Part shown: in pieces, positions 2,391-55,562 of the stretch | Position numbering within the stretch: position 1 is the first letter of the stretch | Layout of the letters: each line of letters opens with the position of its first letter | Source of the DNA: an uncultured Pelagibacteraceae bacterium | GTDB taxonomy: Bacteria > Pseudomonadota > Alphaproteobacteria > Pelagibacterales > AG-422-B15 | NCBI GenBank assembly: GCA_902565955.1 | Contig: CACFGR010000001.1 | Span: 1-61,469, forward strand | DNA length: 61,469 nucleotides | Direction: 5' to 3' | The notes under the pieces: model-generated | What the model was told of the DNA's origin: nothing | Seen by the model: only the letters and a program-made list of their open reading frames with translations | The model's database searches: none | Position numbers and translations under genes: made by a program

Positions 2391-3446
2391 TTATTGTGAT
2401 TTCATTTCTAGAAGTCTGCTTATGGTTCTGTTAAATTTATCTTTCAAATGATATGCACTGCCAAGATCGCTTATTTCTTTTTCTGTGCTTAAATATAATT
2501 TAATTTTATTATCATAGAGAACATCAATTAAATTAATAAATCTTTCTTGAAGATTAGAATTTGTATTTCCAAAAATTGGAACATTTTCAACGATTAATCT
2601 ATCAATTAATTTAATTAACTCGAGGTAGTCTTCAGTGCCTCTATTATCGCCACAAATTTCATTGAATTGAAAACGAGCTATTCTATTAGACAAATTCTTA
2701 ACAACAAAATTTCTCTTCTTCACACTTATTACTTTATCCTCGACTGAAGTTTTATTTGAATGGATAGAAAAAATATCATTTATTTTAAGCTTGCTAACCG
2801 GTGAATTTGATAAAAAAAAGTTCTTTTCTTCTTTTAATGATCTTGTTCTATAGTCAATGTCTATTGATAGATGATGAATTAGAGAGTTATTTTTAATTAA
2901 ATTAATAAATGGAATAAAAAGTTCTCTTTGCAGCCCTTCTTTGTATAAGTCTTCTGGGCTGGAATTAGAAGTTAATACAATTAAAATATTATTTTTAAAG
3001 AACTCCTCAAATAAATGCCCGAGAATCATTGCATCAGCTATATTTGTGACCTGGAATTCATCAAAAAATATGAGACTTGATTTCGATTTAATGCCTTTTA
3101 CAAGTTTTGAAATTATAAAATCTCTTGAATTTTTTTCATTTCTGAGTTGGTGTAATTGATCATGTATATCAATCATAAACTCATGAAAATGGACTCTTTG
3201 TTTTTCTTTTAAATTTACGTCATCATAGAATAAATCCATAATGAGTGTTTTTCCAATGCCCACTCCCCCGTATAAATAAAAGCATTTCTTTTGATTTAAA
3301 TTATATCGAAATAGTTTTTTTATAAAATTTCTGCTCGAACCTAACAAAAATTTATCTAATTCAATAACTAAATCTTTTTGCTTAATATTATGTTCAATAT
3401 GCTTATCTTTACAGAGCTGTTCGTAAACTTTTAAAGCTTCTGACAC
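2391..3446 (-). CDS. zapE: AFG1-like ATPase / cell division protein ZapE
   Basis: 351-aa ORF. The Walker A context FYLYGGVGIGKTLIMDLFY and the Walker B-like LIFFDEFQV are characteristic of the AFG1/ZapE family. Confidence 0.8.
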   Translation of the reverse strand: MSEALKVYEQLCKDKHIEHNIKQKDLVIELDKFLLGSSRNFIKKLFRYNLNQKKCFYLYGGVGIGKTLIMDLFYDDVNLKEKQRVHFHEFMIDIHDQLHQLRNEKNSRDFIISKLVKGIKSKSSLIFFDEFQVTNIADAMILGHLFEEFFKNNILIVLTSNSSPEDLYKEGLQRELFIPFINLIKNNSLIHHLSIDIDYRTRSLKEEKNFFLSNSPVSKLKINDIFSIHSNKTSVEDKVISVKKRNFVVKNLSNRIARFQFNEICGDNRGTEDYLELIKLIDRLIVENVPIFGNTNSNLQERFINLIDVLYDNKIKLYLSTEKEISDLGSAYHLKDKFNRTISRLLEMKSQ

Positions 3447-3458
3447 TTTTTCAAGTAG

Positions 3459-5894
3459 CTAAGATCTAAGTTTCTGATTATCAGGATCGTATGGACTTTC
3501 GGGTATTACCGTTACATCAAACATATCTCCCAAAATATCGATCTTTAACTTTGTGCCTACTTCTGAATGAGCTGGATTGACCATAGCTAAAGCGAGAGAC
3601 TTATTAACTCGAAAGCCAAAATTTCCACCTGTAGCGCGACCAATAACTTTGCCATCAGCATATATTGGATTATTGCCAAGCACATCAGCATCTTTGACAC
3701 CATGAACTTCAAGAGTTACGAAGGAATTTTCAAAACCTTTTTCTCTCCACTGAACTAATGCATCTCTGCCTATGAATTGACCTTTGTTTGGGTGAATGAA
3801 CCTGTCTATTCCTGACTCATATCCTGCGTATTCAATTGATAATTCTGTACCAATTAGTTTGTAGGATTTCTCAATTCTCAAAGAGTCCATTGCTCTTATC
3901 CCAAAAGGCTTTAAACCCAGATCTTTTCCTGCATCCATTAATGTATCGAATATATGATTTTGTACTTCAATTGGTGAGTGGATTTCCCATCCTAATTCGC
4001 CAACGAAATTTACTCTTATTGCAAGTGTTTCTGCAGCACCAATTTTTACTTTTTTACCAGATAGCCATGGGAAACCCTCATTTGTGAAATCATCCTCAGA
4101 TACTCTTTGAAGAAGTTCTCTCGACTTCGGACCAGCGACAACTAATACTCCAATTTGATTTGTAATATTTTCAAATTTTACACTTCTGTCATCGGGCATA
4201 TGTTTTTTTACCCAATCATGGTCCAGCCGTTGCCAAGCTCCAGCAGAAACACAATAAAAACTGTCATGAGACTCCCTCATTATTGTAAATTCTGAGTGTA
4301 CTCCTCCTTTAGAATTCAAAGCATGACAGAGATTTGTCCTTCCTATCTTTTTTGGTAATTTATTAGCAACTAAATTATCTAGGAATTCTTCTGCTCCTGG
4401 TCCGCTTATTCTGCATTTTGCAAATGCGGTCATATCTAAAAGACCTACATTTTCTGTTACATTTTTACATTCATTTCCAATGTGCTCAAACCAAGCTGAT
4501 CGCCTGAATGACCAATCGTCTTCTTGTGGAACTCCTTCAGGAGCAAACCAGTTTGCGCGCTCCCAACCAAACTTTTGACCAAACACTGCACCTAAATTTT
4601 TCAGCCTATCATAACAAGGAGCTTGTCTTAATGGCCGGCCTGCGGGCCTTTCTTCATCAGGATAATGGATTGTGAAAACGTTAGCATAAGCCTCTTCATT
4701 TTTTTTGATTAAATATGATTTTGATGCGTAATCGCCAAACCTTCTGGGTTCAACCCCGAGCATATCAATGGTCGGTTCGCCATCAACAATCCATTCTGCG
4801 ATCTGCCAGCCTGCACCACCAGCAGCTGTAACGCCAAACGAATGACCGTCATTTAAATATAAATTTTTTCTATCCCATGCTGGACCGATAATTGGGCTTC
4901 CATCTGGAGTATAACAAATAGCACCATTATAAACTTTCTTAATTCCTGCTTCTCCAAAAATAGGAACTCTGTGAATTGCATGCTCTATATGAGGGCCAAG
5001 TCTGTCTAAGTCTTCTTGGAATAATTCATACTCACAGTCTTTGCTAGGTCCGTTGACATAGCAACATGGTGCACCATTTTCATATGGTCCAAGAATTAAT
5101 CCACCAGCTTCCTCACGCATATACCATGCGCCGTCAGATCCTCTAAGTACACCCATTTCAGGAAGGCCTTCTTTTTGTCTTTCTAGAATTTTAGGATGAG
5201 CTTCTGTAACTATATATTGATGCTCAACAGGTATCACTGGGATATCTAATCCAACCATTTCTCCGGTTTGCCTGACAAAATTTCCCGAGCATGAAACAAC
5301 AATATCACATTTGATTTCACCTTTATCAGTTGTAACAATCCAACTATCATCTGGTAACTGTTCAAGTCCTATGACTGCAGTTTGTCTGTAAATTTCAGCT
5401 CCAAGCGCTCTTGCTCCTTTTGCTAGAGCTTGCGTAAGATCATTGGGTTGTATGTATCCATCCTCAGGGTGCTGTATAGCACCCACTAAGCCCTCAGTTG
5501 AACAAAGCGGCCAAACTTTTTGAACTTCTTCGGGAGTTAAAAAATTGACTTTAACACCTATTGTTTCCGCAACACCTGCATATTGACGATACTCATCCAT
5601 TCTATCCTGATTTTCAGCAAGTCGAATATTACTTACTTGCCTAAAGCCAACATCTTGACCAGTTTCTTTTTCGAGTTCTTGATAAAATTTAACTGAGTAT
5701 TTATGGATTTGACCAACAGAGTAACTCATGTTGAATAAAGGCATCAAACCCGCAGCGTGCCACGTCGAACCTGATGTAAGTTCTTTGCGTTCGCACAAAA
5801 CTACATCAGACCATCCTTTTTTTGCAAGGTGGTAAAGCGTACTAACTCCAACTACACCGCCACCAATGACGACAACTTTAGCTTTGTTTTTCAT
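3459..5894 (-). CDS. Dimethylglycine dehydrogenase-like enzyme (N-terminal FAD oxidoreductase fused to a C-terminal GcvT aminomethyltransferase/THF-binding domain)
   Basis: The ~811-aa two-domain layout has KVVVIGGGVVGVSTLYHLAK at the N-terminus and a GcvT-like C-terminal half. I moved the start to the ATG at 5894 (MKNKAKVVVIGGG), 5 nt after the upstream stop. The track start at 5915 would overlap the upstream gene. Confidence 0.8.
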   Translation of the reverse strand: MKNKAKVVVIGGGVVGVSTLYHLAKKGWSDVVLCERKELTSGSTWHAAGLMPLFNMSYSVGQIHKYSVKFYQELEKETGQDVGFRQVSNIRLAENQDRMDEYRQYAGVAETIGVKVNFLTPEEVQKVWPLCSTEGLVGAIQHPEDGYIQPNDLTQALAKGARALGAEIYRQTAVIGLEQLPDDSWIVTTDKGEIKCDIVVSCSGNFVRQTGEMVGLDIPVIPVEHQYIVTEAHPKILERQKEGLPEMGVLRGSDGAWYMREEAGGLILGPYENGAPCCYVNGPSKDCEYELFQEDLDRLGPHIEHAIHRVPIFGEAGIKKVYNGAICYTPDGSPIIGPAWDRKNLYLNDGHSFGVTAAGGAGWQIAEWIVDGEPTIDMLGVEPRRFGDYASKSYLIKKNEEAYANVFTIHYPDEERPAGRPLRQAPCYDRLKNLGAVFGQKFGWERANWFAPEGVPQEDDWSFRRSAWFEHIGNECKNVTENVGLLDMTAFAKCRISGPGAEEFLDNLVANKLPKKIGRTNLCHALNSKGGVHSEFTIMRESHDSFYCVSAGAWQRLDHDWVKKHMPDDRSVKFENITNQIGVLVVAGPKSRELLQRVSEDDFTNEGFPWLSGKKVKIGAAETLAIRVNFVGELGWEIHSPIEVQNHIFDTLMDAGKDLGLKPFGIRAMDSLRIEKSYKLIGTELSIEYAGYESGIDRFIHPNKGQFIGRDALVQWREKGFENSFVTLEVHGVKDADVLGNNPIYADGKVIGRATGGNFGFRVNKSLALAMVNPAHSEVGTKLKIDILGDMFDVTVIPESPYDPDNQKLRS

Positions 5895-5899
5895 ATGAA

Positions 5900-6580
5900 T
5901 TATGGTCCGGCCCAATCAACAGCACAATATTCGGCACTTCCACCTGTGAAATCCCAATTACGGCCGTGATCTCTAATCCTACTTCTTTTTGATCCTTTGC
6001 AAACAATTATTTCTGGCGCAACCCAATATTTTAAGTTTGATACTTTTACTACTTCGCCTCTCTCTTTTCCTGGCTCATGTTCAATTCGACCATCTAAGAT
6101 TTCTGGAATTGTAAACGACCATCCATCGTCGGTTTCTTTATATGATATAGAACATCTTTTTACGCCAAGGAAGTTTGCAATCATATGTCTAAACCAACCT
6201 GTTTGTCCACCTGCTTGACCTGAGAAAATAACTGCGAGCGCATCAGCTGCATCATCAGATGCTTTTTCGTCAATATATAATCCTGCTGTCCAACCGCCTG
6301 AACCTAAAGGGCCAGGAACTTCTAAAAGAATAGCAACATTTAAACCACTTAAATCCATAATTCCTTTAGACTCTCTTTTGATAGGGTTAAATCCAGACCA
6401 CTTTTCTTCTGCGTATCCTTCTTCGATATTAATTCCCCACCATGAAAAGCATTTACCATTTGGTGAATTTGGAACCGCTCTCCCCAGGGACATCGGACAA
6501 TTGCAAAATACATCGCAGTTACAATTCAGCAAAAAATTTCCTTTTATTTCCCAATGTAAGTTTAGTGGATTTACAGTCAT
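5900..6580 (-). CDS. DUF1326 family protein (cysteine-rich, unknown function)
   Basis: 226 aa. The N-terminal HWEIKGNFLLNCNCDVFCNCP (CxC-x3-CxC) and the later GLNVAILLEVPGP...ALAVIFSGQAGG match my recollection of DUF1326 proteins. It is adjacent to a DUF2182-type membrane protein, which is the usual pairing. Confidence 0.65.
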   Translation of the reverse strand: MTVNPLNLHWEIKGNFLLNCNCDVFCNCPMSLGRAVPNSPNGKCFSWWGINIEEGYAEEKWSGFNPIKRESKGIMDLSGLNVAILLEVPGPLGSGGWTAGLYIDEKASDDAADALAVIFSGQAGGQTGWFRHMIANFLGVKRCSISYKETDDGWSFTIPEILDGRIEHEPGKERGEVVKVSNLKYWVAPEIIVCKGSKRSRIRDHGRNWDFTGGSAEYCAVDWAGP

Positions 6581-6584
6581 ATAG

Positions 6585-7466
6585 TTAAATAAGTATTAAA
6601 TACGCCCCCCAACCTACAAGAAGAATGCCCAGAAATCTAGAGCTAAGTTTCTCGTAAGGCAGCATTTTTTCAGCCAATACAATTATTGTTATTGCGACAA
6701 CCCAAAGTAAATTCATAACTCCATTTACAAAAAGCAGAAGCATAAGAACCCAGCAACACCCTAAGCAAAATAAACCATGCTTTAGACCCACATAGGCAAC
6801 ATTTCCGTATCCTTTAATAGGACCAGCCATTAGAAACGATAAGGGGTTTCTGCATTTCTCAAGACATGTATCTTTCAAACTTGTAAATTGAAATGCACCT
6901 GCTCCAACAAGAAGTAATCCTGCAAGAATATTATTTTGTAATGTTCCCATCATATCGACTACTCCGTTATTGTGAAAAATATATTGAAGAGTACATGCAA
7001 TAAGTGAAAAAATTGTCCAAATTAAAATATAAGTGAATGAAATTACTATCATCTCAATAATAATATTCGACGATATTTGCATATTCGATCTCATCATTCT
7101 AAAAATATTTAAAAAGATAAATGTAGATGGAAGCATCATCGCAAACATCATGACAGTCCACATTACGAACATCACGATAAAATCGTTTATTGTCCACTTT
7201 CCTGTCATTGGCATCATAAGAAAATTGATTGATGAGTTTTTTTCATTCATATTCATTGAGTCCATAGTCATTTCTGTATCAGACATCGAGTTCATTGACA
7301 TTTCATTTTCTGACACGGTTTCCATTGACATTGTCATTGGATTTTTATTTTGCATCATTGAGTCCATTGGATTAGATGCCATGAGGAATAAATAGTACCA
7401 AGCTAAAGCAATTAGCAAGGTGAGAAAAAAAAGTGTGGTGATATATTCAATTTTAAATGTTTTCAT
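6585..7466 (-). CDS. DUF2182-type predicted metal-binding integral membrane protein with a Met-rich N-terminal region
   Basis: 293 aa with multiple TM helices. The MWTVMMFAMMLPS helix and a GLFCLGCCW segment are typical of DUF2182. Residues 29-87 contain 17 Met. There is a 1-nt TAATG overlap with the upstream PCuAC gene. Confidence 0.6.
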   Translation of the reverse strand: MKTFKIEYITTLFFLTLLIALAWYYLFLMASNPMDSMMQNKNPMTMSMETVSENEMSMNSMSDTEMTMDSMNMNEKNSSINFLMMPMTGKWTINDFIVMFVMWTVMMFAMMLPSTFIFLNIFRMMRSNMQISSNIIIEMIVISFTYILIWTIFSLIACTLQYIFHNNGVVDMMGTLQNNILAGLLLVGAGAFQFTSLKDTCLEKCRNPLSFLMAGPIKGYGNVAYVGLKHGLFCLGCCWVLMLLLFVNGVMNLLWVVAITIIVLAEKMLPYEKLSSRFLGILLVGWGAYLILI

Positions 7467-7921
7467 TAATGTTCTGTATGATCTTCTAGACTTTTTTGAG
7501 TTTCAACCTCAAAAAGCACTTTGATCTCGCCTGCATTTTCAAATACTAAAGACCCTTCTAAACTTATTCCATGAGTTAATTCAATACTAAAATTTGAAAA
7601 CATTATATGGTGCGTGCCGGGTTTGAGCGATTTAGCTTTTTGTGGAGGGATTTCAATAAAATCAACTTTACTCATTGTAACTATTCCATTCTCTACACTT
7701 GAATAATGTAACTCAGTATCTGCAAAGTCAGTAACAACTTTAATTAAACGATCTGTCTCGAAACCCATGTTTACTATTTTCATATATCCAGCTGCAGGGC
7801 CTGATGAAATTACAAATTTAATGTGTGGGTGATTTATATTAATATGATCTTTTTGAAATTGGTGAGCAGCTCCAATTTTTGTAGAAACTAAAAACAAAAC
7901 TATTATTAGTGCTTTATACAA
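7466..7921 (-). CDS. Periplasmic copper chaperone PCuAC (DUF461 family)
   Basis: 151 aa with a signal peptide. AAGYMKIVNMG...ELHYS...GIVTMSKV...LKPGTHHIMF fits the H(M)-M-HxM Cu(I) motif pattern of PCuAC. The apparent start is TTG, 3 nt after the upstream stop, and no nearby ATG is available. Confidence 0.7.
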   Translation of the reverse strand: MYKALIIVLFLVSTKIGAAHQFQKDHININHPHIKFVISSGPAAGYMKIVNMGFETDRLIKVVTDFADTELHYSSVENGIVTMSKVDFIEIPPQKAKSLKPGTHHIMFSNFSIELTHGISLEGSLVFENAGEIKVLFEVETQKSLEDHTEH

Positions 7922-7924
7922 CCC

Positions 7925-8170
7925 TTAATCTCTCTCTGTCGAAAACATACAGACATCGTTAACACAAGTTAAAACGCATAATAAGTTTTTATCTTTGTTA
8001 TGATAAGATGCCCATAATTCAGTCTTTTCATGTTTTAAAAGAAGCTCAACATTAGAATCACAATTTTTTTTTGATGCTTGTTCAGATGCCAATTCTCTAT
8101 ATTTATTTGTTTCTATTATTTCGGAACAAGACAATAAAACAAAAAAAATAAATATTGATATTTTATACAT
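7925..8170 (-). CDS. Small Cys-rich putative lipoprotein (unknown function)
   Basis: 81 aa. It has a signal peptide with a lipobox-like VLLSC and five further Cys, including LLCVLTCVNDVCMF (C-x3-C-x3-C). It sits between the SCO1 and PCuAC genes. Confidence 0.45.
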   Translation of the reverse strand: MYKISIFIFFVLLSCSEIIETNKYRELASEQASKKNCDSNVELLLKHEKTELWASYHNKDKNLLCVLTCVNDVCMFSTERD

Positions 8171-8172
8171 TT

Positions 8173-8823
8173 TTATAGATTTTTTAAATCTTCAACCATT
8201 TGTTCAATACTAGAACCAAAGGGAAGTATGCTTCTTAATACATCATTATCATCAAAAATATAATAGAAAGCAGTATGTTGAACCATGTAGTTTTTTTCTT
8301 TATTACTTATTTCATCAGATTGTTCAGATGTACCTAAATAATTTTGATGTTCTGAATTTGTTGCCGGCTCTACATGTACAAAAAAATCTTTCCATATTGG
8401 CATAAGATTTTCATGTGTCCCCGTTAAACCAATTAAATTATTGCTAAAGTTGCTAAGAAATTCTTTTAATCGGTCAGGGTTATCCCTAACAGGATCAACT
8501 GTTACAAAGAAAAATTTTATATTTTCTATTGAATGGTTTTCTCTATTTAATTGATCAATGGCATTACTCATAAGATTTGCACTAATTGGACAAATATCTG
8601 GGCAATGAGTAAAGCCAAAAAAGAATACTTTACTATATCCGCTATAAGTTCTTTCACTTACATCAACTCCAAAATGGTCAACCGCTGTAAATTTTAAATC
8701 AATATCATTTGATACTTCTGAAGTATTGTCTCTAAATAATTCAGAAACTGCCCAACCAGCGACGACTGCTAATATAATTATTGAGAGGAATAAAAGTTGA
8801 TTAACTCTACTTCTTGAAATCAT
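8173..8823 (-). CDS. SCO1/SenC family copper chaperone (thioredoxin fold)
   Basis: 216 aa with an N-terminal membrane anchor. It carries the diagnostic FGFTHCPDICP (CxxxC) motif and a downstream His (MVQHTAFYY region). Confidence 0.85.
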   Translation of the reverse strand: MISRSRVNQLLFLSIIILAVVAGWAVSELFRDNTSEVSNDIDLKFTAVDHFGVDVSERTYSGYSKVFFFGFTHCPDICPISANLMSNAIDQLNRENHSIENIKFFFVTVDPVRDNPDRLKEFLSNFSNNLIGLTGTHENLMPIWKDFFVHVEPATNSEHQNYLGTSEQSDEISNKEKNYMVQHTAFYYIFDDNDVLRSILPFGSSIEQMVEDLKNL

Positions 8824-9959
8824 TATTCCATTTTTTCGAGTCTAGAACTAAATGGTAAAGGGACAACTTCAACTTCTCGTTTTTCTCCATCATGATCAAT
8901 CTGATAAACTTCTTCTGAATTAATTAAATTAATATCAATGAACCCTAAGGCAATATTGCATCCAAAGTTTGGGCTATAAATACAGCTGGTTACAAATCCT
9001 TTTTTTTCAGAGTTATTGTCAAACAATGGTATTCTTGCCATATTATAACCAATTTTCTTTCCTGAAATTTTAAAACCAGTGAATTGTTTTTTAATGCCCT
9101 CTTCTCTTATTTTTAAGAGAGCATCTTTTCCTACAAAGTCCGCTTCTTGATCAAGATCATAAAATTTTGGTAAGTTTAGTTCTAAAGGGTTCTCAGCTAA
9201 TGAGGTATCTCCTTGGTGGGAAATCATACCGGCTTCAATTCTATCTATTTGATTAGGACAACTTGGTACAATTTTAAACTCTTTTCCTGCTTCCATTAAT
9301 GCATTCCATAATGCAGGACCATCTACTTCTCTTGTTATATAAATTTCGTATCCAAACTGATTACTCCAACCGCTGCGTGCAATGATGATATCTAATCCAA
9401 ATAAGTCAGTTTCGATAAATTGATAATATTTTAATCCCATAATAACTGGATCATCATTTGTAGCTTTTCTCATGAGTTCTTTTGCGCGCGGGCCTTGCAA
9501 TGAAAGCGGACAAGCTTCAGGCTCCGAAATTTTAACATTAAACTTACCAGATAAAGCAACGCCTTTACACCATAGTATCGCATCAGAATCTGCAATACTC
9601 AGCCAATACTTATTTTCATTAAACTTTAAAATTAATGGATCATTTATGATTCCACCATTTTCATCTGTCATAAATGCGTAACGACAAAACCCATTTTTAA
9701 AAGTTGATAGATTTCTTGGCGTCATATACTGAACAAATTTAGCGGCGTCTTCTCCAATAATTTCAATTTGTCTCTCTGCTGCCACATCCCATAATGTTAC
9801 ATCGTTTATTAATGATTGGTATTCCTCCTCAGGAGTCGTATAGCCAACAGGCATCGTCATACGGTTATAAGTTGTAAAATTGGTAGCGCCGTATTTTAGT
9901 GTCTCTTCAAAGAAAGGTGATTTTCTAATCCTTGGGGTGTATATAATACCTTTTGACAT
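8823..9959 (-). CDS. GcvT-family THF-dependent aminomethyltransferase/demethylase, DmdA-like
   Basis: 378 aa. RKSPFFEETL..., WDVAAERQIEIIGEDA, ENGGIINDPLILK, WLSIADSD, LSLQGPRA, ARSGWSNQFGYEIY and IEAGMISHQGD follow the DmdA/GcvT pattern. Confidence 0.7.
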   Translation of the reverse strand: MSKGIIYTPRIRKSPFFEETLKYGATNFTTYNRMTMPVGYTTPEEEYQSLINDVTLWDVAAERQIEIIGEDAAKFVQYMTPRNLSTFKNGFCRYAFMTDENGGIINDPLILKFNENKYWLSIADSDAILWCKGVALSGKFNVKISEPEACPLSLQGPRAKELMRKATNDDPVIMGLKYYQFIETDLFGLDIIIARSGWSNQFGYEIYITREVDGPALWNALMEAGKEFKIVPSCPNQIDRIEAGMISHQGDTSLAENPLELNLPKFYDLDQEADFVGKDALLKIREEGIKKQFTGFKISGKKIGYNMARIPLFDNNSEKKGFVTSCIYSPNFGCNIALGFIDINLINSEEVYQIDHDGEKREVEVVPLPFSSRLEKME

Positions 9960-24247: not shown

Positions 24248-24742
24248 ATGATTTCAAAGTTAATACTAGGCGCAGGATGTTTTTGGGGAGTAGAAGTTCT
24301 TTTTGAAGAAATGTCTGGCGTTAAAAAAGTAATTTCAGGGTATGCCGGTGGACATACAGAAAACCCTACATATGAAGAGGTCTGCACTGGTAAGTCAGGG
24401 CACATTGAAGTTGTTGAGATTGAGTATGATAATAGTGAAGTAAAGTTTGAGGAATTGTTAGACAAGTTTTTTTTTATTCATGATCCAACTCAGATGAATC
24501 GTCAAGGTCCAGACATTGGTGAACAATACAAGTCAGTTATTTTTTATAATTCTGATGAAGAAAGAAGAATATCGGAAAGCAAAATTGATGAGATTAATAA
24601 CTCAGGCGAACATCAAAACAAAGTAGTAACGGAATTAAGAGAGAATGCTAAATTTTGGCCTGCTGAAGAATACCACCAAGACTTCATAGAAAAAAATGGT
24701 AAAGTTTGCTATCACCAACTTTACGTACAACACAAATCCTAA
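24248..24742 (+). CDS. msrA: Peptide methionine (S)-S-oxide reductase
   Basis: 164 aa with the diagnostic GAGCFWGVE active-site motif, followed by GYAGG and EYHQ. Confidence 0.9.
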   Translation: MISKLILGAGCFWGVEVLFEEMSGVKKVISGYAGGHTENPTYEEVCTGKSGHIEVVEIEYDNSEVKFEELLDKFFFIHDPTQMNRQGPDIGEQYKSVIFYNSDEERRISESKIDEINNSGEHQNKVVTELRENAKFWPAEEYHQDFIEKNGKVCYHQLYVQHKS

Positions 24743-24797: not shown

Positions 24798-26141
24798 CTA
24801 GCCCTTTACAACTTCTCTTGTATTCGCGTTGAAAGACTCAGTAAACGGTACATCAACTGTTACAGCGTCTACTGGTACTCCTGGCTCATCAGCATAAATA
24901 TCAGGTAAATGAACTTTAAATTTTTTACCTAGTTCCCATTTTGGAAAGCCATTTGCATTAAGGGTTCCATCAAAAGGTATATAACCCATAGCTATATTTT
25001 TTCCTTTTTCAGGATGATACCAAGGTGAAGTAATAAAGCCACATGGGTCTCCACCGTCACCAGGAGACACAAGCCAAAAATCAGGCGCATACTCATCAAT
25101 TGGTTTGCCACCAATTTCAAATCCCACCAATTGTAACTTGTACGGCTTATGACCATCTTTCAAGTCAGTCTTCATCTTTTCAAGCGCTTGCTTACCGATA
25201 TAATCACCTTTTTTCTCCCACTCACCTTTTCCAGATAAAGAAACTTGATAGCCAAGATTACATTGGAAAGGATTGTGCTCATGATCTAAGTCCTGACCCC
25301 AGGATAAAATACCTGCTTGTATTCTTCTGTGGTGAGCAGGTGCTATAACCATTAGATTATGTTTCTTGCCTGCTTCTAAAACAGCATCCCACATATCGTC
25401 GGCATAGAGCGTCGCATTTCGTAAATAAATTTCATAACCTGACTCGCCAGAGAAACCAGTTTGAGAAATCACACAACTTCTTCCACCAACTGTAACTTCT
25501 GCTAAACCATAGAAAGGAATATTATCAAGATCAACTTGATCACCCACTAGGTCTTTCATCAAGGCAATGGCTTTTGGTCCTTGAATTTGAACAGGGCACG
25601 CATCAATTTCATCAATTTCCACATTAAATCTTTTATCAGCGTTTACGCCTTGCAAATAAAGTCCAATATCTGAGTCTGACAAACTAAACCAAAACTCATC
25701 TTTCGAGATTCTTAAGAGAATAGGATCATTTAAGACTCCGCCTTTATAGTTACATAATATTACGTACCTAGCTCGTAATGGTGATATCTTTGTGGCATCC
25801 CTTGTAATTACATAGTCTGTAAATTTTTCAGCATCTGGACCAATTACACGTATTTGTCTTTCAACTGCAACATTCCACATAGTCACATGATTTTTAATTG
25901 CTTCATATTCAACCATTGCTCCACCATCTTCAGGCTTTACATAACCTCTGGGATGATAAATACGGTTATAAACTGTTGCTCTCCAGCATCCTGCTTCCAT
26001 TGACTTATGCCAATATGGTGACTTTCTCACTCGAGTTGAAATCAACATTTCAACTTTTGTTGGTCCACTTTGGCGTAAATTGTAAGGAACATGTCTGTCG
26101 CTTTGATCAACAGTGGTGTTATGTTCTATTTTTTTAGACAT
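24798..26141 (-). CDS. GcvT-family THF-dependent demethylase/aminomethyltransferase paralog (long form)
   Basis: 447 aa. VRKSPYWHKSME, WNVAVERQIRVIGPDA, KGGVLNDPILLR, FWFSLSDSD, VQIQGPKA and SGFSGESGYEIY parallel the 8823-9959 protein. This one has longer termini. Confidence 0.7.
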   Translation of the reverse strand: MSKKIEHNTTVDQSDRHVPYNLRQSGPTKVEMLISTRVRKSPYWHKSMEAGCWRATVYNRIYHPRGYVKPEDGGAMVEYEAIKNHVTMWNVAVERQIRVIGPDAEKFTDYVITRDATKISPLRARYVILCNYKGGVLNDPILLRISKDEFWFSLSDSDIGLYLQGVNADKRFNVEIDEIDACPVQIQGPKAIALMKDLVGDQVDLDNIPFYGLAEVTVGGRSCVISQTGFSGESGYEIYLRNATLYADDMWDAVLEAGKKHNLMVIAPAHHRRIQAGILSWGQDLDHEHNPFQCNLGYQVSLSGKGEWEKKGDYIGKQALEKMKTDLKDGHKPYKLQLVGFEIGGKPIDEYAPDFWLVSPGDGGDPCGFITSPWYHPEKGKNIAMGYIPFDGTLNANGFPKWELGKKFKVHLPDIYADEPGVPVDAVTVDVPFTESFNANTREVVKG

Positions 26142-26874
26142 AGTAGTTCTCCTTTTCTAACCATTCGTTTGCTTTTTTTATTCCACCAAACGCATAAATG
26201 TGAAAATGTTCAACGTTCTCTTTTAATTCTTGAATTACATCATCAGGTGTCTGAACAGTCAATAAATCAAAAATTTTAGATGCATTTTTTTTTGCGAAAT
26301 TAAGCGTATTCTTTAATCCAACAAATCCAGCGAATTTAACTAGCGTCTTCATAGAAGCCGGACCCGCAACGCCTACATGAACAGGAAGTGGTGCTCCAGA
26401 AATAAAAGACGATAATGCGTCTGTATCTTGTGTCCACTGTGTTACAATATAGTCAGCAAATGGGGCCTTTGATTTCATTGCTTCTTCAATAGCTGCATCG
26501 CTCATATTTGGAGATCCTTCAGGATGACCAGCGATACCTATTTTCATTCCATCAAACAATCCAGTTTCTATAAGTTGTAGTGAACAATGATATTTTCCTA
26601 AAATATCTCGATCGCCACCAATTATTAAAACTTGTTTAACTCCAGCCTCTTTAACTTGCTCTATATATGATTTTAGCATATCTGAATCAGTAATTGAACG
26701 AGCTGGAAAGTGAGGAATGGGATTATAACCTGCACTAGCTAACGCTTTGGTTTGTTCAATAACATCAAGATAACTTGTGCCAGGCAAAAAGGTAATATAA
26801 ATGTCATTGAGTTTAGGCAAATCAGACAGGTTTGTTCTTGTAGTAACTTCCAATGAAAAATTTACATTTCCCAT
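26134..26874 (-). CDS. Methylenetetrahydrofolate reductase-like protein (short form)
   Basis: 246 aa. FSLEV, PHFPAR, LIIGGD, AGHPEGSP, IVTQW and FHIYAFGG line up with the FSFEFFPP / PHLTC / ALRGD / YPEGHPE / ITQ / HFYTLN blocks of MetF. It overlaps the downstream GcvT paralog by 8 nt. Confidence 0.6.
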   Translation of the reverse strand: MGNVNFSLEVTTRTNLSDLPKLNDIYITFLPGTSYLDVIEQTKALASAGYNPIPHFPARSITDSDMLKSYIEQVKEAGVKQVLIIGGDRDILGKYHCSLQLIETGLFDGMKIGIAGHPEGSPNMSDAAIEEAMKSKAPFADYIVTQWTQDTDALSSFISGAPLPVHVGVAGPASMKTLVKFAGFVGLKNTLNFAKKNASKIFDLLTVQTPDDVIQELKENVEHFHIYAFGGIKKANEWLEKENYYV

Positions 26875-26934: not shown

Positions 26935-27064
26935 AATTTTGCAGCGCTATTTGAGTCTCCTAAAACAAAATTTAAGTAAAAATTTGTTCTATAGCAATAC
27001 ATTTTTGTAGACTCCTATCTGTAAAGTTCTTAAGTTGTCTAGGTTTTTAATATTAGTATTATTT

Positions 27065-28732
27065 ATGGCTGTACTCTCAGATATTGAAATTGCTAGAGAA
27101 AATAGCATGGCTCCAATTGAAGAAATTGCTTCAAAATTAGACTTAAAAGATCAAAATCTCCAAAAATTTGGGCACCACATTGCTAAAATTGATACTCAAC
27201 ATATAGAAAGTAATAACAAGAACGGAAAACTCATTTTAGTGACGGCCATTTCACCTACCCCAGCGGGTGAAGGAAAGACTACTACATCAGTCGGTCTCAG
27301 TGATGGCTTGAATAAAATTGGAAAACAGTCATTGGTATGCTTGAGAGAACCTAGTTTAGGACCTTGCTTTGGTGTCAAAGGGGGTGCTGCAGGAGGCGGT
27401 TACGCCCAAGTAGTACCAATGGAAAAAATTAATTTACATTTCACAGGTGATTTCCATGCGATCACATCAGCACATAACCTCCTTGCATCGATGATTGATA
27501 ACCATATTTATTGGGGAAACGATTTAGGAATTGATACAAGAAGAGTGGTTTGGGGACGTGTTGTAGATTTAAATGATCGTGCTTTAAGAAATATTAATGT
27601 TAATTTAGGCGGTATAGCCAACGGGTACCCACGTGAGGATAAATTCGATATTACTGTTGCATCTGAAGTGATGGCAATTTTTTGTTTATCTACAAGTTTA
27701 GACGATTTACAAAATAGACTTGGGAATATCATTGTTGGTTATACAAGGGAGAAGAAAGAAATTACGGCGCGAGACTTAAATGCAGACGGCGCGATGACTA
27801 CTTTGCTAAAAGATGCTTTCTTACCTAATCTTGTTCAAACACTGGAGAAAAATCCTGCTATCATTCATGGGGGTCCTTTTGCAAATATTGCCCATGGATG
27901 CAATTCTTTAGTTGCTACTCAAACTGCTCTTAAATTAAGTGATTATGTTGTAACAGAAGCAGGCTTTGGTGCAGATCTTGGAGCAGAAAAATTTTTAGAC
28001 ATAAAGTGCCGTAAAGGAAAATTAAATCCTTCAGCAATAGTAATAGTTGCAACAGTTCGAGCGTTAAAAATGCATGGCGGTATGGATAAAAAAGAATTAA
28101 AAAATGAAAATGTTGAAGCTGTAAAAAATGGTTTATCAAATTTAAAGCAGCACATTGCAAATATGCAAATGTATGGGGCGCCTGTTACAGTTGCTATTAA
28201 TCATTTCATATCTGACAGTGAAAAAGAATTGTCGGCAATCAGCGATTGCTGTGATTCATTGAATGTAAAGTCATTTAATTGCACACATTGGAGCAATGGT
28301 GGTGCAGGCACAGAGGACCTAGCAAAGCACATAGTAGAAATTACTGAGCAAAATGCTCCAAAGATAAAGCACCTGTATCCGGACGAAATGAAATTATGGG
28401 ATAAGATGAAAAAAATTGCACAAGAAATATATGGAGCGAGCGATATTATTGCTGACCAAAAAATAAGAATGCAGTTTGACGACTTGGAGGAAAAATATGG
28501 CCATTACCCAATATGTGTAGCTAAAACTCAATACAGCTTCTCAACTGATCCAAATCTAAGAGGCGCTCCAAAAGACCATGTAGTTCCTATCAGAGAAGTT
28601 AGACTAGCAGCGGGTGCAGAATTTCTTGTAGTTGTATGCGATAAGATTATGACTATGCCAGGTCTGCCTAGAGTTCCAGCTGCAAATGCTATACACTTAA
28701 ATAAAAATGGCGACATAGAGGGATTGTTTTAA
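27065..28732 (+). CDS. fhs: Formate-tetrahydrofolate ligase
   Basis: [10 protein letters not shown]..., [38 protein letters not shown] and [10 protein letters not shown] are hallmark FTHFS motifs. I set the start at the ATG at 27065 rather than the TTG at 27035. Confidence 0.95.
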
Positions 28733-34166: not shown

Positions 34167-34766
34167 ATGATTTTATTGCGCAGATACCTATTATATTTAA
34201 TTGCAGTAATATTGATTGCTGTAGCCTTTACTTATGCCTCCGCCAAGCTTTACGAAGAATTTGCATTTATCAAGAACGACAATTGGCAAATTTTGCCATC
34301 TCCAGGCGATAAAAATAGAGATATTTACACAAGGGCCGCTGTCGCAATGAGAGGAACATTTGCTTTGGCAAAGCCTGAAGCTGCATATTTCCATGCATTT
34401 AACGACATTGAAGAACTAGAATTACAAGGCAACTGCAATTATCATTTATTCGGAAATGATATTGAATCTAGATGGTGGAGTATCACCGTCTACAATGAGG
34501 ACGGTTATTTAGTTGAAAATAATGAAAAAATATATGCGTTAAATAGTGAAACAATTGATTTTAATATCGATGGCGGGTTCGATATTTTTTTAACTAATGA
34601 CAATAATTTTATTTCAAAAGTAGCTGATAAAAATTGGATGAGAACACCTAGTGATGAGAGTTTTTCCGTCGCATTAAGAATTTATTTACCAGGTGAAGAA
34701 TATTTCTCAAAATTGAAGAGAGTGGATTTGCCGGTTATTGAAAAATTGGAGTGTGGTGATGAGTAA
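34167..34766 (+). CDS. DUF1214 domain protein with an N-terminal membrane anchor
   Basis: 199 aa. YTRAAVAMRGTFALAKPEAAYF...LQGNCNYHL...WWSITVYNEDGYLVENNEKIYALNS...DGGFDIFL follows the DUF1214 pattern as I recall it. Confidence 0.55.
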   Translation: MILLRRYLLYLIAVILIAVAFTYASAKLYEEFAFIKNDNWQILPSPGDKNRDIYTRAAVAMRGTFALAKPEAAYFHAFNDIEELELQGNCNYHLFGNDIESRWWSITVYNEDGYLVENNEKIYALNSETIDFNIDGGFDIFLTNDNNFISKVADKNWMRTPSDESFSVALRIYLPGEEYFSKLKRVDLPVIEKLECGDE

Positions 34767-35286
34767 TTTAGTTAAAAAATTATTTGCACTTGTATTCATT
34801 GGGTTTTCACTTCATCTAGTGATAATTTACTACACACCTAGTTTAATGATGAAGTTTATCGGTAGAAATTGGGAAGAGCAAAATATGATTAATAATTCAT
34901 TTGCTCGCGATTTACCTGACTCAGAATTTACTGAAGTTATAAGACCAAGCGCTGACATACTTTATGGTGGATGTGCTTATGACGTTACTTATTTTCCATT
35001 GGTTGTAGAAACTGAAGTACCTGAGTCTTACTGGTCGATATCATTCTTTTCAGAAAACACTGACAACTTTTCTACAATAAATGAAAATGCGCACAACGTT
35101 GGCAAGCTTAAAATTTATTTGTTTGGACCAAATTCTATGCCAACAAAGGTAAATGATGGTTTTATTGTTGTTTCCCCGTCTAACAAAGGCCTTATGTTAA
35201 TGAGACAATTTATAGGAAATGGTTCTAAACTTGATAAATTAAATGAGATACAAAATAGTTTAGACTGTAAACTTGAGGGTTCTTAA
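34759..35286 (+). CDS. DUF1254 domain protein with an N-terminal membrane anchor
   Basis: About 175 aa from the ATG at 34759, which gives an ATGAGTAA overlap with the upstream stop. [16 protein letters not shown]...[18 protein letters not shown]...LFGPN...[16 protein letters not shown] resembles DUF1254. Confidence 0.55.
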
Positions 35287-55093: not shown

Positions 55094-55562
55094 ATTTTTT
55101 CTGACTATATATAGTTATTAAGTTTATGGGCAGATATAATAAAACCATTATCAGGAAAGATGACAACTCTCCAATAGATAAATAATTAAGCTGGTAATTA
55201 AAATAAATAAATAAATTTTTAAAAATAAATAAAATTAATAATGCCGTAATAAATATAATAAATTTTAATGTTTGTTGTTCGAATATACCATTAATTGAGG
55301 TTATTTGACTTAAAACATAGAAACATAAAAAAATACTTCCAGAGTAACCTAAATTTATTCCGAGCAAAATATCTTGAGAAATACCCCAAGCAAAAAGAAA
55401 AATGGGAACTAACCATTCACTTTCGTTCCATTTTATTGAATATAAAAAAATGGACAGCATTAAAGTAAAATCAATTAGATTAAAATTAAATGCATTGTTT
55501 AATGAAATAAAAAAAAGAAAAAATCCATTTAATAGCAAATAGCCTTTGAATCTTAGACTCAT
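55077..55562 (-). CDS. mreD: Rod shape-determining protein MreD
   Basis: 161-aa hydrophobic protein in the canonical slot between mreC and mrdA. The call rests on position and topology. Confidence 0.65.
   Translation of the reverse strand: MSLRFKGYLLLNGFFLFFISLNNAFNFNLIDFTLMLSIFLYSIKWNESEWLVPIFLFAWGISQDILLGINLGYSGSIFLCFYVLSQITSINGIFEQQTLKFIIFITALLILFIFKNLFIYFNYQLNYLSIGELSSFLIMVLLYLPINLITIYSQKKYEKIR

What the first reader, a model, noticed from the sequence alone, without database searches (positions are those of the whole stretch)
5900..8823. Five-gene putative copper-relay cassette (SCO1, Cys-rich lipoprotein, PCuAC, Met-rich DUF2182, CxC-rich DUF1326) inserted in a methyl-group oxidation operon
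Five consecutive minus-strand genes are separated by at most 4 nt or overlap by 1 nt (TAATG at 8823 and 7466). Two are recognisable Cu(I) chaperones:
- SCO1/SenC, with FGFTHCPDICP.
- PCuAC, with the Met/His motif ...GTHHIMF.

The other three have no assigned function but all look like metal-binding proteins:
- An 81-aa lipoprotein with C-x3-C-x3-C.
- A polytopic DUF2182-type protein carrying a very Met-rich segment.
- A DUF1326-type protein with CxC-x3-CxC.

DUF2182 and DUF1326 are known to occur as a pair, but to my knowledge they are uncharacterised. Physical fusion of the pair into one apparent transcription unit with SCO1 and PCuAC suggests a membrane Cu(I) uptake or relay system. The cassette sits between a GcvT/DmdA-like gene and a dimethylglycine-dehydrogenase-like gene. 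That is an unexpected location for cytochrome-oxidase assembly factors.
Basis: partly seen in the sequence, partly recalled or inferred. Interest (0 to 1): 0.72.

Follow-up and report, generated by a model that had tools for sequence, protein, structure and literature searches.

The report
Copper-chaperone cassette fused to DmdEF in SAR11
In an abundant SAR11-type marine bacterium, two classic copper chaperones and a new small lipoprotein sit in one tight operon with the DmdE/DmdF pair (shown in 2026 to be essential for DMSP demethylation in Roseobacters and reported absent from SAR11), right after a DmdA-family demethylase gene, which suggests that DmdE/DmdF handle copper.

Summary
Five back-to-back minus-strand genes (5900-8823) encode SCO1/SenC, an 81-aa Cys-rich lipoprotein, PCuAC, a DUF2182 membrane protein and a DUF1326 protein, with all metal-ligand motifs intact and conserved.

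Pfam now names DUF2182 'PpoB2, copper chaperone'. Fu et al. (EMBO J 2026) named the DUF2182/DUF1326 pair DmdE/DmdF: operonic with dmdA in Roseobacters, essential for growth on DMSP, DmdF with H2O2-consuming activity. The position after a DmdA-family gene therefore matches a known functional association.

Three things appear new:
- The pair occurs in Pelagibacterales-labelled genomes. The exact DmdF sequence is on at least 1,000 contigs, some 1.16-1.41 Mb. The paper says SAR11 lack it.
- Only in this lineage is the pair fused to SCO1, an orphan lipoprotein and usually PCuAC. Among 75 other loci, none has SCO1 and one has PCuAC.
- Where PCuAC is missing, SCO1 carries a His-rich insertion.

Best model: a thiolate/thioether Cu(I) relay running from the periplasmic chaperones through DmdE to cytoplasmic five-Cys DmdF. 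Direction and client are inferred, not shown. I rate it a new variant of a known kind.

The parts
8823..9959 (-). DmdA-family (GcvT-fold) THF-dependent demethylase. First gene of the tight array; its stop overlaps the SCO1 start.
   Evidence: Pfam GCV_T + GCV_T_C. Best NCBIfam match is DMSP demethylase NF009133 at 353 bits, below the curated cut-off of 410, against GcvT at 189 bits. Best solved relative is P. ubique DmdA 3TFH, E 2.4e-82.
8173..8823 (-). SCO1/SenC copper chaperone with an N-terminal membrane anchor and a periplasmic thioredoxin-fold domain carrying C-x3-C and His ligands.
   Evidence: PF02630 6.5e-34. TM segment 9-27. CPDIC and VQH conserved in 8 homologs. Forms its own clade from 97% to 41% identity, then drops to generic SCO proteins at 36% or less.
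7925..8170 (-). 81-aa orphan lipoprotein (lipobox LLSC) with four further conserved Cys (NC...C-x3-C-x4-C) and a conserved C-terminal FSTERD.
   Evidence: No Pfam or NCBIfam family. Conserved in every cassette locus. A profile search of 1.84 billion representatives finds only about 80-aa relatives; the long hits are spurious ankyrin repeats. No PDB relative.
7466..7921 (-). PCuAC periplasmic Cu(I) chaperone with a signal peptide and an intact H-x10-M-x21-H-x-M motif. Dispensable: it is absent from one sub-lineage.
   Evidence: PF04314 9.2e-20. Motif read. Absent in L006, L008, L009, L087, L088 and L097, whose SCO1 carries a 34-47-aa loop with 3-5 His instead of 26-27 aa with 1-3 His.
6585..7466 (-). 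DmdE / PpoB2-family (DUF2182) polytopic inner-membrane protein. It has a signal anchor, a 73-aa acidic periplasmic loop with 17 Met, a Met-ladder helix (M99/102/106/107/110/111), a cytoplasmic C201-x3-C205 loop, and a TM helix with H230/C234/C237/C238.
   Evidence: PF09948 2.1e-54. Ligand residues invariant or nearly so in 82 sequences from many phyla. Topology by hydropathy and the positive-inside rule. AF2 model pLDDT 68.5, with 75-87 in most of the membrane core. No structural analogue in the PDB. The Met loop is expanded in this lineage: median 73 aa and 17 Met against 31 aa and 5 Met.
5900..6580 (-). DmdF (DUF1326), a soluble protein with no signal peptide and so presumably cytoplasmic. 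N-terminal five-Cys cluster C20-x-C22-x3-C26-x-C28...C44.
   Evidence: PF07040 2.9e-36. All five Cys are invariant in 73 of 73 sequences. No TM segment or signal peptide. The exact sequence equals GIR05439.1 'Candidatus Pelagibacterales bacterium', on at least 1,000 contigs.
3459..5894 (-). DMGDH-like FAD oxidoreductase fused to a GcvT domain. It follows DmdF after 5 nt and is followed in turn by an AFG1-like ATPase, DAO-type oxidases and, in relatives, soxBDAG.
   Evidence: Pfam DAO, FAO_M, GCV_T and GCV_T_C. The ATG at 5894 was read. The same order is seen in L004, L006, L088, L089 and L148-L155.

Best explanation
The cassette is a copper-handling module built around DmdE/DmdF.

Shown here:
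- Two bona fide periplasmic copper chaperones (membrane-anchored SCO1 and soluble PCuAC) and a Cys-rich lipoprotein are encoded in one tight gene array with a PpoB2-family membrane protein (DmdE) and a Cys-cluster protein (DmdF).
- The array sits inside an operon for methyl-group removal: a DmdA-family demethylase, a DMGDH-like gene, and sarcosine oxidase genes in relatives.

Inferred mechanism:
1. Cu(I) captured in the periplasm by PCuAC, SCO1, the lipoprotein and the long Met-rich loop of DmdE is passed by ligand exchange along a thioether/thiolate path in DmdE. The path runs from the Met ladder on TM2, to H230/C234/C237/C238 on TM5, to the cytoplasmic C201-x3-C205 loop.
2. From there it reaches the five-Cys cluster of cytoplasmic DmdF.
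3. DmdF is then the metallated end product, or a cytoplasmic chaperone. Its reported H2O2-consuming activity would protect the cell while flavin oxidases and thiol-producing demethylation run from the same transcript.

This parallels PpoB2 loading copper into tyrosinase, and MerP-MerT-MerA handing Hg(II) across the membrane by Cys pairs. Which way the metal travels, and the final client, are not established.
For: - Family assignments with intact ligand motifs.
- PF09948 is named for a protein genetically required for copper transfer to a cuproenzyme.
- DmdE has invariant soft-metal ligands in 82 sequences across phyla: M102, M106, M107, M110, M111, C201, C205, C234, C237, C238, M242, M251, with H230 in 78 of 82.
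- M99/102/106/110 have i, i+3, i+7, i+11 spacing, which places them on one helical face (read from the sequence).
- Topology puts the Met-rich acidic loop outside and the C-x3-C loop inside.
- DmdF has five invariant Cys and no export signal.
- The array has overlapping or nearly abutting genes and no internal terminator.
- The array is conserved in more than 30 loci, down to 43% SCO1 identity.
- The SCO1 is a specialised clade, and the lipoprotein is found only in this cassette.
- Loss of PCuAC coincides with a His-rich insertion in SCO1, as if metal capture were being compensated.
- The periplasmic Met loop is expanded in this lineage, in one case by a perfect 24-nt tandem repeat.
- In a Roseobacter, delta-dmdE and delta-dmdF both abolish growth on DMSP and delta-dmdA partly rescues delta-dmdE. 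DmdF consumes H2O2, and no metal analysis was done (PMC12992908).
Against: - No copper binding or transport has been shown for any DmdE or DmdF.
- The link to SCO1/PCuAC is confined to one lineage (0 of 75 other loci with SCO1, 1 of 75 with PCuAC). It therefore counts as roughly one evolutionary event, and SAR11 genomes are so compact that adjacency is weaker evidence than elsewhere.
- No cuproenzyme is encoded in the 61-kb window.
- Across bacteria the pair has no recurrent neighbour at all, copper-related or otherwise.
- A Cu(I)-thiolate site is an unusual catalyst for H2O2 removal.
- Five Cys could instead hold an Fe-S cluster or Zn.
- The DmdE model is of only moderate confidence and the DmdF model failed.
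- SCO1 and PCuAC normally hand copper to periplasmic sites, which fits export at least as well as import.
Confidence: 0.5

Rival explanations
1. The same relay runs outward. DmdF collects cytoplasmic Cu(I), and DmdE passes it to periplasmic SCO1, PCuAC and the lipoprotein. These either metallate a periplasmic or membrane cuproenzyme (aa3 cytochrome oxidase CuA, or a methanethiol oxidase) or simply keep Cu(I) away from the methanethiol made by DMSP demethylation. Copper plus thiol plus O2 makes H2O2, which would account for the ROS phenotype.
For: - SCO1 and PCuAC classically act as donors to periplasmic Cu sites (established knowledge of the families).
- Cu-dependent periplasmic methanethiol oxidase has its own operon-linked SCO1/SenC (PMC5739008).
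- delta-dmdA partly rescues delta-dmdE, which fits a toxic product downstream of DmdA.
- delta-dmdF has raised ROS.
Against: - The window encodes no SBP56/MtoX or cox genes.
- mtoX is carried by only about 0.2-0.6% of seawater bacteria in one survey, far below SAR11 abundance (PMC7039863).
- PpoB2, the only family member with a copper phenotype, is described as transferring copper specifically to tyrosinase PpoB1. From my recollection, not checked here, PpoB1 is cytoplasmic, which would argue for import.
- The direction cannot be read from the sequence.
Confidence: 0.22
2. The cassette is a thiol-based peroxide or redox defence that needs no copper. DmdF is a Cys-dependent H2O2 scavenger. DmdE shuttles reducing equivalents through its Cys pairs in the manner of DsbD/CcdA, and SCO1 acts as a thioredoxin-fold peroxiredoxin or reductase. 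The operon is protected because it encodes H2O2-producing flavin oxidases.
For: - DmdF consumes H2O2 in vitro, and Fu et al. place dmdEF under oxidative-stress protection.
- SCO1 has a thioredoxin fold, and many homologs also match AhpC-TSA (PF00578).
- The operon encodes DAO-type oxidases, and sarcosine oxidase in relatives.
- L050 has a catalase gene next to the pair.
Against: - O2 release from H2O2 is dismutation, which thiol peroxidases do not perform.
- DmdE shows no sequence or fold match to DsbD/CcdA.
- The invariant Met ladder and the Met-rich loop have no role in disulfide exchange but are typical of Cu(I) sites.
- PCuAC has no redox function, and its full Cu(I) motif is retained.
- The His-rich SCO1 insertion in PCuAC-less loci points to metal capture.
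Confidence: 0.13
3. The adjacency is coincidental. SCO1, the lipoprotein and PCuAC are this lineage's ordinary cytochrome-oxidase assembly factors and merely sit next to dmdEF in a streamlined genome.
For: - SAR11-type genomes pack unrelated genes tightly.
- The linkage arose essentially once.
- Orthologs of the DmdA-like gene exist without the cassette (L104-L107).
Against: - The order and the overlaps are kept across deep divergence (SCO1 down to 43% identity, DmdE down to 58%) while the surrounding genes are rearranged, for example in L088 compared with the window.
- The SCO1 is a separate clade found only in this context in every locus examined.
- PCuAC loss is accompanied by a change in the adjacent SCO1.
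- Roseobacters independently link dmdEF to dmdA.
Confidence: 0.1

Closest known systems
DmdE/DmdF of Roseobacters (Ruegeria lacuscaerulensis ITI-1157; Fu et al., EMBO J 2026, PMC12992908)
   Same: - Same two Pfam families (DUF2182/PF09948 and DUF1326/PF07040).
- Adjacent, in the order E then F.
- In one operon-like array with a DmdA-family gene.
- DmdE is a predicted metal-binding membrane protein with an N-terminal signal.
   Different: - Here the pair is preceded by SCO1, an orphan lipoprotein and PCuAC, which that paper does not mention.
- No DmdR-type regulator, acuI or dinB is found in the 61-kb window.
- The dmdA-like gene is upstream rather than downstream.
- The SAR11-type DmdE forms its own long-branch clade, not sister to the Rhodobacterales DmdR-linked example L068.
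- The paper states that SAR11 lack dmdE and dmdF.
PpoB2 of Marinomonas mediterranea (founder of Pfam PF09948 / COG5486)
   Same: Same Pfam family (184.8 bits against a cut-off of 28.7). A polytopic membrane protein with metal-binding motifs, and a genetic role in transferring copper to a specific enzyme.
   Different: PpoB2 is encoded next to its client tyrosinase PpoB1. Here there is no tyrosinase. The partners are DUF1326 and the periplasmic chaperones, and the client is unknown or is DmdF itself.
ScoI/SenC-PcuC (PCuAC) pathway for CuA/CuB assembly of cytochrome oxidases
   Same: SCO1 and PCuAC with canonical ligand motifs and periplasmic location.
   Different: There is no cox gene nearby. 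The SCO1 belongs to a separate clade found only in this cassette. PCuAC is dispensable and appears to be replaced by a His-rich SCO1 loop. The array sits in a methyl-oxidation operon.
mtoX-SCO1/senC-mauG cluster of Cu-dependent methanethiol oxidase (Eyice et al. 2018, PMC5739008)
   Same: A dedicated SCO1 is genetically tied to the DMSP/methanethiol pathway.
   Different: The window has no SBP56/MtoX or MauG, and the partner genes differ.
MerP-MerT-MerA mercury relay (mechanistic analogue only; from general knowledge)
   Same: A periplasmic metal-binding protein, a small membrane protein with a vicinal Cys pair in a TM helix and a cytoplasmic Cys pair, and a cytoplasmic acceptor with Cys ligands. 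Transfer is by thiol ligand exchange.
   Different: There is no sequence or fold relationship. The periplasmic partners here are copper-specific, and the Met ladder is not a Mer feature.

Membership tests
SCO1/SenC (PF02630) | Profile match above the curated cut-off | tested here: met
   117.2 bits against 22.8
SCO1/SenC (PF02630) | C-x3-C plus a distal His copper ligand set, and an N-terminal membrane anchor | tested here: met
   HCPDICP and VQH are conserved in 8 homologs. TM segment 9-27.
SCO1/SenC (PF02630) | Delivers copper to cytochrome oxidase CuA, or acts as its thiol reductase | not testable with these tools
   No cox genes in the window. The complete genomes could not be searched.
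PCuAC (PF04314) | Profile match above the cut-off and the H(M)-x10-M-x21-H-x-M Cu(I) motif with a signal peptide | tested here: met
   71 bits against 29.4. ELH-x10-M-x21-HIM read. Hydrophobic N-terminus.
PpoB2 / DUF2182 (PF09948) | Profile match above the cut-off, covering the whole domain | tested here: met
   184.8 bits against 28.7, profile positions 1-187 of 188
PpoB2 / DUF2182 (PF09948) | Encoded next to its cuproenzyme client (tyrosinase PpoB1) | tested here: not met
   No tyrosinase or any other cuproenzyme among the window ORFs of 130 aa or more
PpoB2 / DUF2182 (PF09948) | Required for copper transfer to a client | not testable with these tools
   Needs genetics or biochemistry
DmdE/DmdF system (Fu et al. 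2026) | DUF2182 and DUF1326 genes adjacent and co-oriented | tested here: met
   4-nt gap, order E then F
DmdE/DmdF system (Fu et al. 2026) | Operonic with dmdA | tested here: inconclusive
   A DmdA-family gene heads the same array. However, it scores 353 bits on the DmdA equivalog model, below the cut-off of 410. Its best PDB hit is P. ubique DmdA.
DmdE/DmdF system (Fu et al. 2026) | Close to dmdR and acuI, often with dinB | tested here: not met
   None of these is found among the Pfam-scanned window ORFs. By contrast, L068 (Rhodobacterales) has an AcuI-like reductase and a GntR-type regulator beside DmdE-DmdF.
DmdE/DmdF system (Fu et al. 2026) | Belongs to the Rhodobacterales DMSP-linked phylogenetic clade | tested here: not met
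   In a neighbour-joining tree of 101 DmdE cores, the SAR11-type sequences form a separate long-stem clade and L068 is not their sister. The tree is crude.
DmdE/DmdF system (Fu et al. 2026) | Required for growth on DMSP; DmdF consumes H2O2 | not testable with these tools
   Experimental
DMSP demethylase DmdA (NCBIfam NF009133) | Score at or above the curated equivalog cut-off | tested here: not met
   353.1 against 410. The relatives L104 and L006 score about 350, and L115 scores 386.

The most novel reading that the evidence does not exclude
DmdE/DmdF are a previously unrecognised inner-membrane copper translocation system: a Met/Cys-lined conduit plus a cytoplasmic polycysteine copper protein. 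It is fed by periplasmic SCO1, PCuAC and a new lipoprotein. Marine DMSP and glycine betaine demethylation, in Roseobacters and in an abundant SAR11-type population alike, would then depend on copper through this system. DmdF's 'peroxidase' activity would be a property of its copper centre, and DMSP turnover would be sensitive to copper availability in the ocean.
Probability: 0.3. Interest if true: 0.85.

Novelty: new variant of a known kind. Interest (0 to 1): 0.62.

Why it matters
DMSP demethylation is the main route of marine organic sulfur turnover, and it competes with production of the climate-active gas DMS. DmdE and DmdF were only recently shown to be essential for it in Roseobacters. 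The function of DmdE is unknown, and DmdF's activity rests on a crude H2O2 assay with no metal analysis.

This cassette matters for two reasons:
- It provides the only specific, interpretable genomic partners seen for the pair in the roughly 110 loci examined here, and those partners are canonical copper chaperones. That turns 'unknown function' into a directly testable copper hypothesis.
- It places the pair in Pelagibacterales-labelled genomes that are very widespread in ocean metagenomes, where the pair was reported to be absent. This changes estimates of who carries the system.

If copper is truly required, trace-metal availability would become a control on DMSP fate.

Tried and rejected
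- **Cuproenzyme client in the window.** I Pfam-scanned all 57 ORFs of 130 aa or more plus the 81-aa cassette ORF. None is a cuproenzyme: no SBP56/MtoX, cox, tyrosinase or multicopper oxidase.
- **Conserved neighbours of the pair across bacteria.** Clustering all ORFs within 5 kb in 75 loci gave no family in more than 6 loci. A Pfam census of 137 flanking ORFs gave no family in more than 3. The first clustering was dominated by shadow ORFs overlapping DmdE/DmdF and had to be filtered.
- **Solved structures.** DmdE, DmdF and the lipoprotein have no PDB relative by sequence. DmdE has none by fold either.
- **DmdF structure.** The single-sequence AlphaFold run gave pLDDT 29 and was discarded.
- **Remote homologs of the lipoprotein.** The long hits were ankyrin repeats and spurious.
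- **Ruegeria denitrificans locus L012 as the published operon.** Rejected: its context is LysR, a GFA-like protein and a methyltransferase, and its order is F then E.
- **L115/L116 as canonical SAR11 DmdA.** Not confirmed: L115 scores 303 bits to 3TFH and is also below the DmdA cut-off.
- **Recent horizontal transfer.** Not supported: GC3 of the cassette genes is 0.17-0.33 against about 0.25 in the flanks.
- **Regulatory RNA or operator upstream.** No Rfam hit, no inverted repeat, and only a -10-like box is conserved.
- **Exact-sequence look-up of the window's DmdE.** It found nothing, whereas DmdF was found.

Full report
**1. What is in the sequence**

Five consecutive minus-strand ORFs occupy 5900-8823.

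| Coordinates | Length | Pfam result |
|---|---|---|
| 8173-8823 | 216 aa | SCO1/SenC PF02630, 6.5e-34 |
| 7925-8170 | 81 aa | no family |
| 7466-7921 | 151 aa | PCuAC PF04314, 9.2e-20 |
| 6585-7466 | 293 aa | PF09948, 2.1e-54 |
| 5900-6580 | 226 aa | DUF1326 PF07040, 2.9e-36 |

NCBIfam has no model for any of the five.

There are TAATG overlaps at 8823 and 7466, and gaps of 2, 3 and 4 nt elsewhere.

The tight array extends further on both sides. The upstream GcvT-fold gene (8823-9959) overlaps SCO1. The downstream DMGDH-like gene most probably starts at the ATG at 5894, 5 nt after the DUF1326 stop.

No terminator-like site lies on the coding strand within the array, and promoter-like matches are not above the shuffle expectation.

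**2. What the genes are, in the light of current knowledge**

Pfam now calls PF09948 'PpoB2, copper chaperone'. PpoB2 of Marinomonas mediterranea is the membrane protein needed for copper transfer to tyrosinase PpoB1, and it was the first COG5486 member with a role (PMC2855505).

More importantly, Fu et al. (EMBO J 2026, PMC12992908) named the DUF2182/DUF1326 pair DmdE/DmdF. Their findings in Roseobacters:
- The pair lies in one DmdR-regulated operon with dinB, dmdA and acuI.
- delta-dmdE and delta-dmdF cannot grow on DMSP, and deleting dmdA partly rescues delta-dmdE.
- DmdE is not a DMSP transporter, and its function is left open.
- Purified DmdF consumes H2O2 and releases O2.

The paper reports no metal analysis and does not discuss the Cys motifs. 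The O2 test used 1.76 M H2O2 and His-tagged protein. It does not mention copper. It states that SAR11 lack dmdE and dmdF.

The gene at the head of the array is a DmdA-family protein:
- Its best NCBIfam model is DMSP demethylase at 353 bits. That is below the curated cut-off of 410 but far above GcvT at 189 bits.
- Its best solved relative is P. ubique DmdA, 3TFH, E 2.4e-82.

**3. Organism and abundance**

- The nearest genome records for DmdE are labelled Pelagibacteraceae or Pelagibacterales. They are single-cell genomes AG-337-E07 (71%), AG-901-G03 (96%, partial) and AG-914-G18 (52%), and MAG cluster2_bin.78 (58%).
- The window's exact DmdF sequence is GIR05439.1 'Candidatus Pelagibacterales bacterium'. 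It is on at least 1,000 contigs, is indexed in 3,504 blocks of the collection, and occurs on contigs of 1.16-1.41 Mb.
- The window's IlvC falls in a 90%-identity cluster with a 'Pelagibacteraceae bacterium' protein.
- The window has 34.4% GC. It carries the one-carbon island typical of SAR11: OpuA-type ABC transporter, BHMT, FTHFS, an MTHFR-like gene, three GcvT paralogs and DMGDH. Housekeeping genes follow.

I could not place the lineage within SAR11. The labels are those of the depositors.

**4. Conservation of the cassette**

The order 'DmdA-like, SCO1, lipoprotein, [PCuAC], DmdE, DmdF, DMGDH-like, AFG1, DAO, DAO, soxDAG' recurs widely:
- at 88%, 73% and 58% DmdE identity;
- around cassette-type SCO1 proteins of 65%, 50% and 43% identity;
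- in all eight of the long contigs shown.

In a metagenome scan seeded with the DmdA-like protein, 20 of the 24 informative loci at 79% identity or more carry the cassette directly downstream. The other four (L104-L107, about 80% identity) lack it and sit in a different context, with a HAD phosphatase and GlmU downstream.

The cassette SCO1 is a distinct clade running from 97% to 41% identity, followed by a sharp drop to generic SCO proteins at 36% or less.

The lipoprotein family is found only here. There were 22 clusters in the word-indexed search. A profile search of 1.84 billion representatives gave only relatives of about 80 aa, once spurious ankyrin-repeat hits are set aside.

PCuAC is missing from one sub-lineage (L006, L008, L009, L087, L088, L097). 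In exactly those loci the SCO1 loop before the His ligand is 34-47 residues with 3-5 His, for example SHDDHDSHSSHGDH. In the 14 distinct PCuAC-containing loci the loop is 26-27 residues with 1-3 His.

**5. The wider DUF2182/DUF1326 family**

A scan of one genome per species found more than 573 relatives. The best 80 span Proteobacteria, Chloroflexota, Acidobacteriota, Verrucomicrobiota, Bacteroidota and Actinomycetota.

- DmdF is adjacent to DmdE on the same strand in about three quarters of the loci.
- The usual order is F then E. The SAR11-type loci, a Rhodobacterales locus with an AcuI-like gene and a GntR-type regulator (L068), and L029 have E then F.
- None of the 75 non-Pelagibacterales loci has SCO1 or the lipoprotein within 10 kb, even at E<1. 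One of them (L050) has a PCuAC, on the opposite strand, and a catalase gene upstream.
- No other neighbour recurs. The largest cluster of real neighbours covers 6 loci and consists of generic families. In a Pfam census of 137 flanking ORFs no family occurs more than three times.
- In a neighbour-joining tree the SAR11-type DmdE form a separate long-stem clade, not sister to L068.

The SCO1/PCuAC fusion is therefore one lineage-specific event. The dmdA linkage in SAR11-type genomes appears to be independent of the Roseobacter one.

**6. Anatomy bearing on mechanism**

*DmdE.*
- The following are invariant or nearly so in 82 sequences: M102, M106, M107, M110, M111 (helix MW..MM.AMM.PS), C201-x3-C205, H230 (78 of 82), C234, C237, C238, M242, M251.
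- Hydropathy and the positive-inside rule give this topology: N-terminus inside, a signal anchor, an acidic periplasmic loop (residues 23-95; 17 Met, 9 Asp+Glu, 3 Lys+Arg), the Met-ladder helix, a cytoplasmic loop with C-x3-C, and a TM helix with H230/C234/C237/C238.
- M99/102/106/110 have the spacing of a single helical face. This is an inference from the sequence.
- The AlphaFold model built from 57 sequences has mean pLDDT 68.5, with 75-87 in most of the membrane core and a disordered Met loop. It has no structural analogue in the PDB: best E 1.6, TM-score 0.27 or less.
- The periplasmic loop is Met-rich across the family but expanded here, with a median of 73 residues and 17 Met against 31 and 5. 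In L095 it contains a perfect 24-nt x 3.5 tandem repeat encoding MSMEDMDS.

*DmdF.* It has no signal peptide or TM segment. It has five Cys that are invariant in 73 of 73 sequences (C20, C22, C26, C28, C44).

*Periplasmic partners.* SCO1 has an N-terminal anchor, PCuAC has a signal-like N-terminus, and the 81-aa protein has a lipobox. All three are thus periplasmic.

**7. Explanation**

The best-supported reading is a copper-handling module. Copper-specific periplasmic chaperones are coupled to a membrane protein whose conserved residues form a thioether/thiolate path, and to a cytoplasmic polycysteine protein. I favour inward transfer ending at DmdF for three reasons:
- PpoB2 is described as transferring copper specifically to tyrosinase PpoB1.
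- delta-dmdE phenocopies delta-dmdF.
- No other client is encoded nearby.

DmdF's H2O2 dismutation would then be a property of a metal centre. That would make sense in an operon full of flavin oxidases and upstream of methanethiol production. Direction, client and the identity of the metal are inferences.

Rivals:
- Outward transfer, to cytochrome oxidase or methanethiol oxidase, or as protection against copper-thiol chemistry. The precedent is the mtoX-SCO1 linkage. Against it are the low abundance of mtoX in seawater and the absence of a client in the window.
- A copper-free thiol peroxide defence. Against it are the O2 release, the Met ladder, the retained PCuAC motif and the lack of any DsbD/CcdA similarity.
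- Coincidental adjacency. Against it are the deep conservation, the specialised SCO1 clade, the cassette-restricted lipoprotein and the coupled change between PCuAC and SCO1.

**8. Novelty and verdict**

Each of the four recognisable families is known, and the dmdA-dmdEF association was published in 2026. Three things appear new relative to the literature I could search:
- the physical fusion of DmdEF with SCO1, PCuAC and a new lipoprotein;
- the presence of DmdEF in Pelagibacterales-labelled, very widespread genomes, contrary to the published statement;
- the copper hypothesis for DmdE/DmdF that follows.

I rate it a new variant of a known kind, with interest 0.62. The most novel reading still open is that DmdE/DmdF form a new class of membrane copper translocation system that makes marine demethylation copper-dependent. 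I give that about 0.3 probability.

Noticed in passing
window 2391-3446 (-): An AFG1-like ATPase (PF03969, 4.6e-85) follows the DMGDH-like gene and keeps that position in every relative examined (L004, L006, L088, L089, L148-L155). From memory, eukaryotic Afg1 is linked to turnover of cytochrome oxidase subunits. Its role in a methyl-oxidation/copper operon is unexplained.
   Followed up: no
window 24248-24742 (+); L088 8217-8708; L107 4521-5030: Methionine sulfoxide reductase MsrA lies 14 kb from the cassette in the window, but directly upstream of the DmdA-like gene in L088 and probably in L107. This could matter for a system with a 17-Met periplasmic loop and an oxidative-stress link.
   Followed up: partly
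L006, L008, L009, L087, L088, L097 (SCO1 genes): Cassettes without PCuAC have SCO1 proteins with a 34-47-residue His/Asp-rich insertion (for example SHDDHDSHSSHGDH) just before the His ligand. This may be a built-in substitute for the missing chaperone.
   Followed up: yes
L095 2712-2794: A perfect 24-nt x 3.5 tandem repeat encodes MSMEDMDS within the Met-rich loop of DmdE. Loop length ranges from 39 to 94 residues within the lineage, so this segment evolves quickly by repeat expansion.
   Followed up: partly
L010 9986-10819: Pelagibacterales SAG AH-269-J06 carries an orphan DmdE with a Met-rich loop but no DmdF, SCO1 or DmdA-like gene within 10 kb. It is flanked by agmatinase-like, GST-like and haloalkane-dehalogenase-like ORFs (identified by eye from the translations, not scanned).
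   Followed up: partly
L050 6933-12022: In an alphaproteobacterial MAG, a catalase gene lies upstream of DmdF-DmdE. A PCuAC with a Met/His-rich C-terminal tail (GHEMGGAGMGSDHMGG) lies just downstream on the opposite strand. This is the only copper chaperone found beside the pair outside the SAR11-type lineage.
   Followed up: partly
L021, L037, L075, L081, L063, L030: Several loci carry two DUF1326 (DmdF) copies, either flanking DmdE or in tandem, which suggests paralogous acceptors for one membrane partner.
   Followed up: no
L012 8348-8767: In Ruegeria denitrificans the DmdF-DmdE pair is preceded by a GFA-like Cys-rich protein (glutathione-dependent formaldehyde-activating family, judged by eye from the sequence) and a divergent LysR regulator. 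This is not the published dmdR/acuI context, so Roseobacters may have more than one kind of pair.
   Followed up: partly
window 24798-26874 (-) and 27035-28732 (+): A third GcvT-family paralog (447 aa; 235 bits on the DmdA model) overlaps a short MTHFR-like gene and sits next to formate-tetrahydrofolate ligase. Its substrate is unknown.
   Followed up: partly
window 34167-35286 (+): An overlapping DUF1214/DUF1254 gene pair of unknown function.
   Followed up: no
window 50992-52098 (+) and 55077-55562 (-): A 368-aa ORF with no Pfam match lies between a FAD-binding monooxygenase gene and rodA. A 161-aa ORF with no match lies in the position expected for mreD.
   Followed up: no
L104-L107: A sister population has a DmdA-like gene 80% identical to the window's but no cassette. 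The gene lies between msrA and a convergent HAD phosphatase/glmU. These would be natural comparators for testing what the cassette adds.
   Followed up: partly
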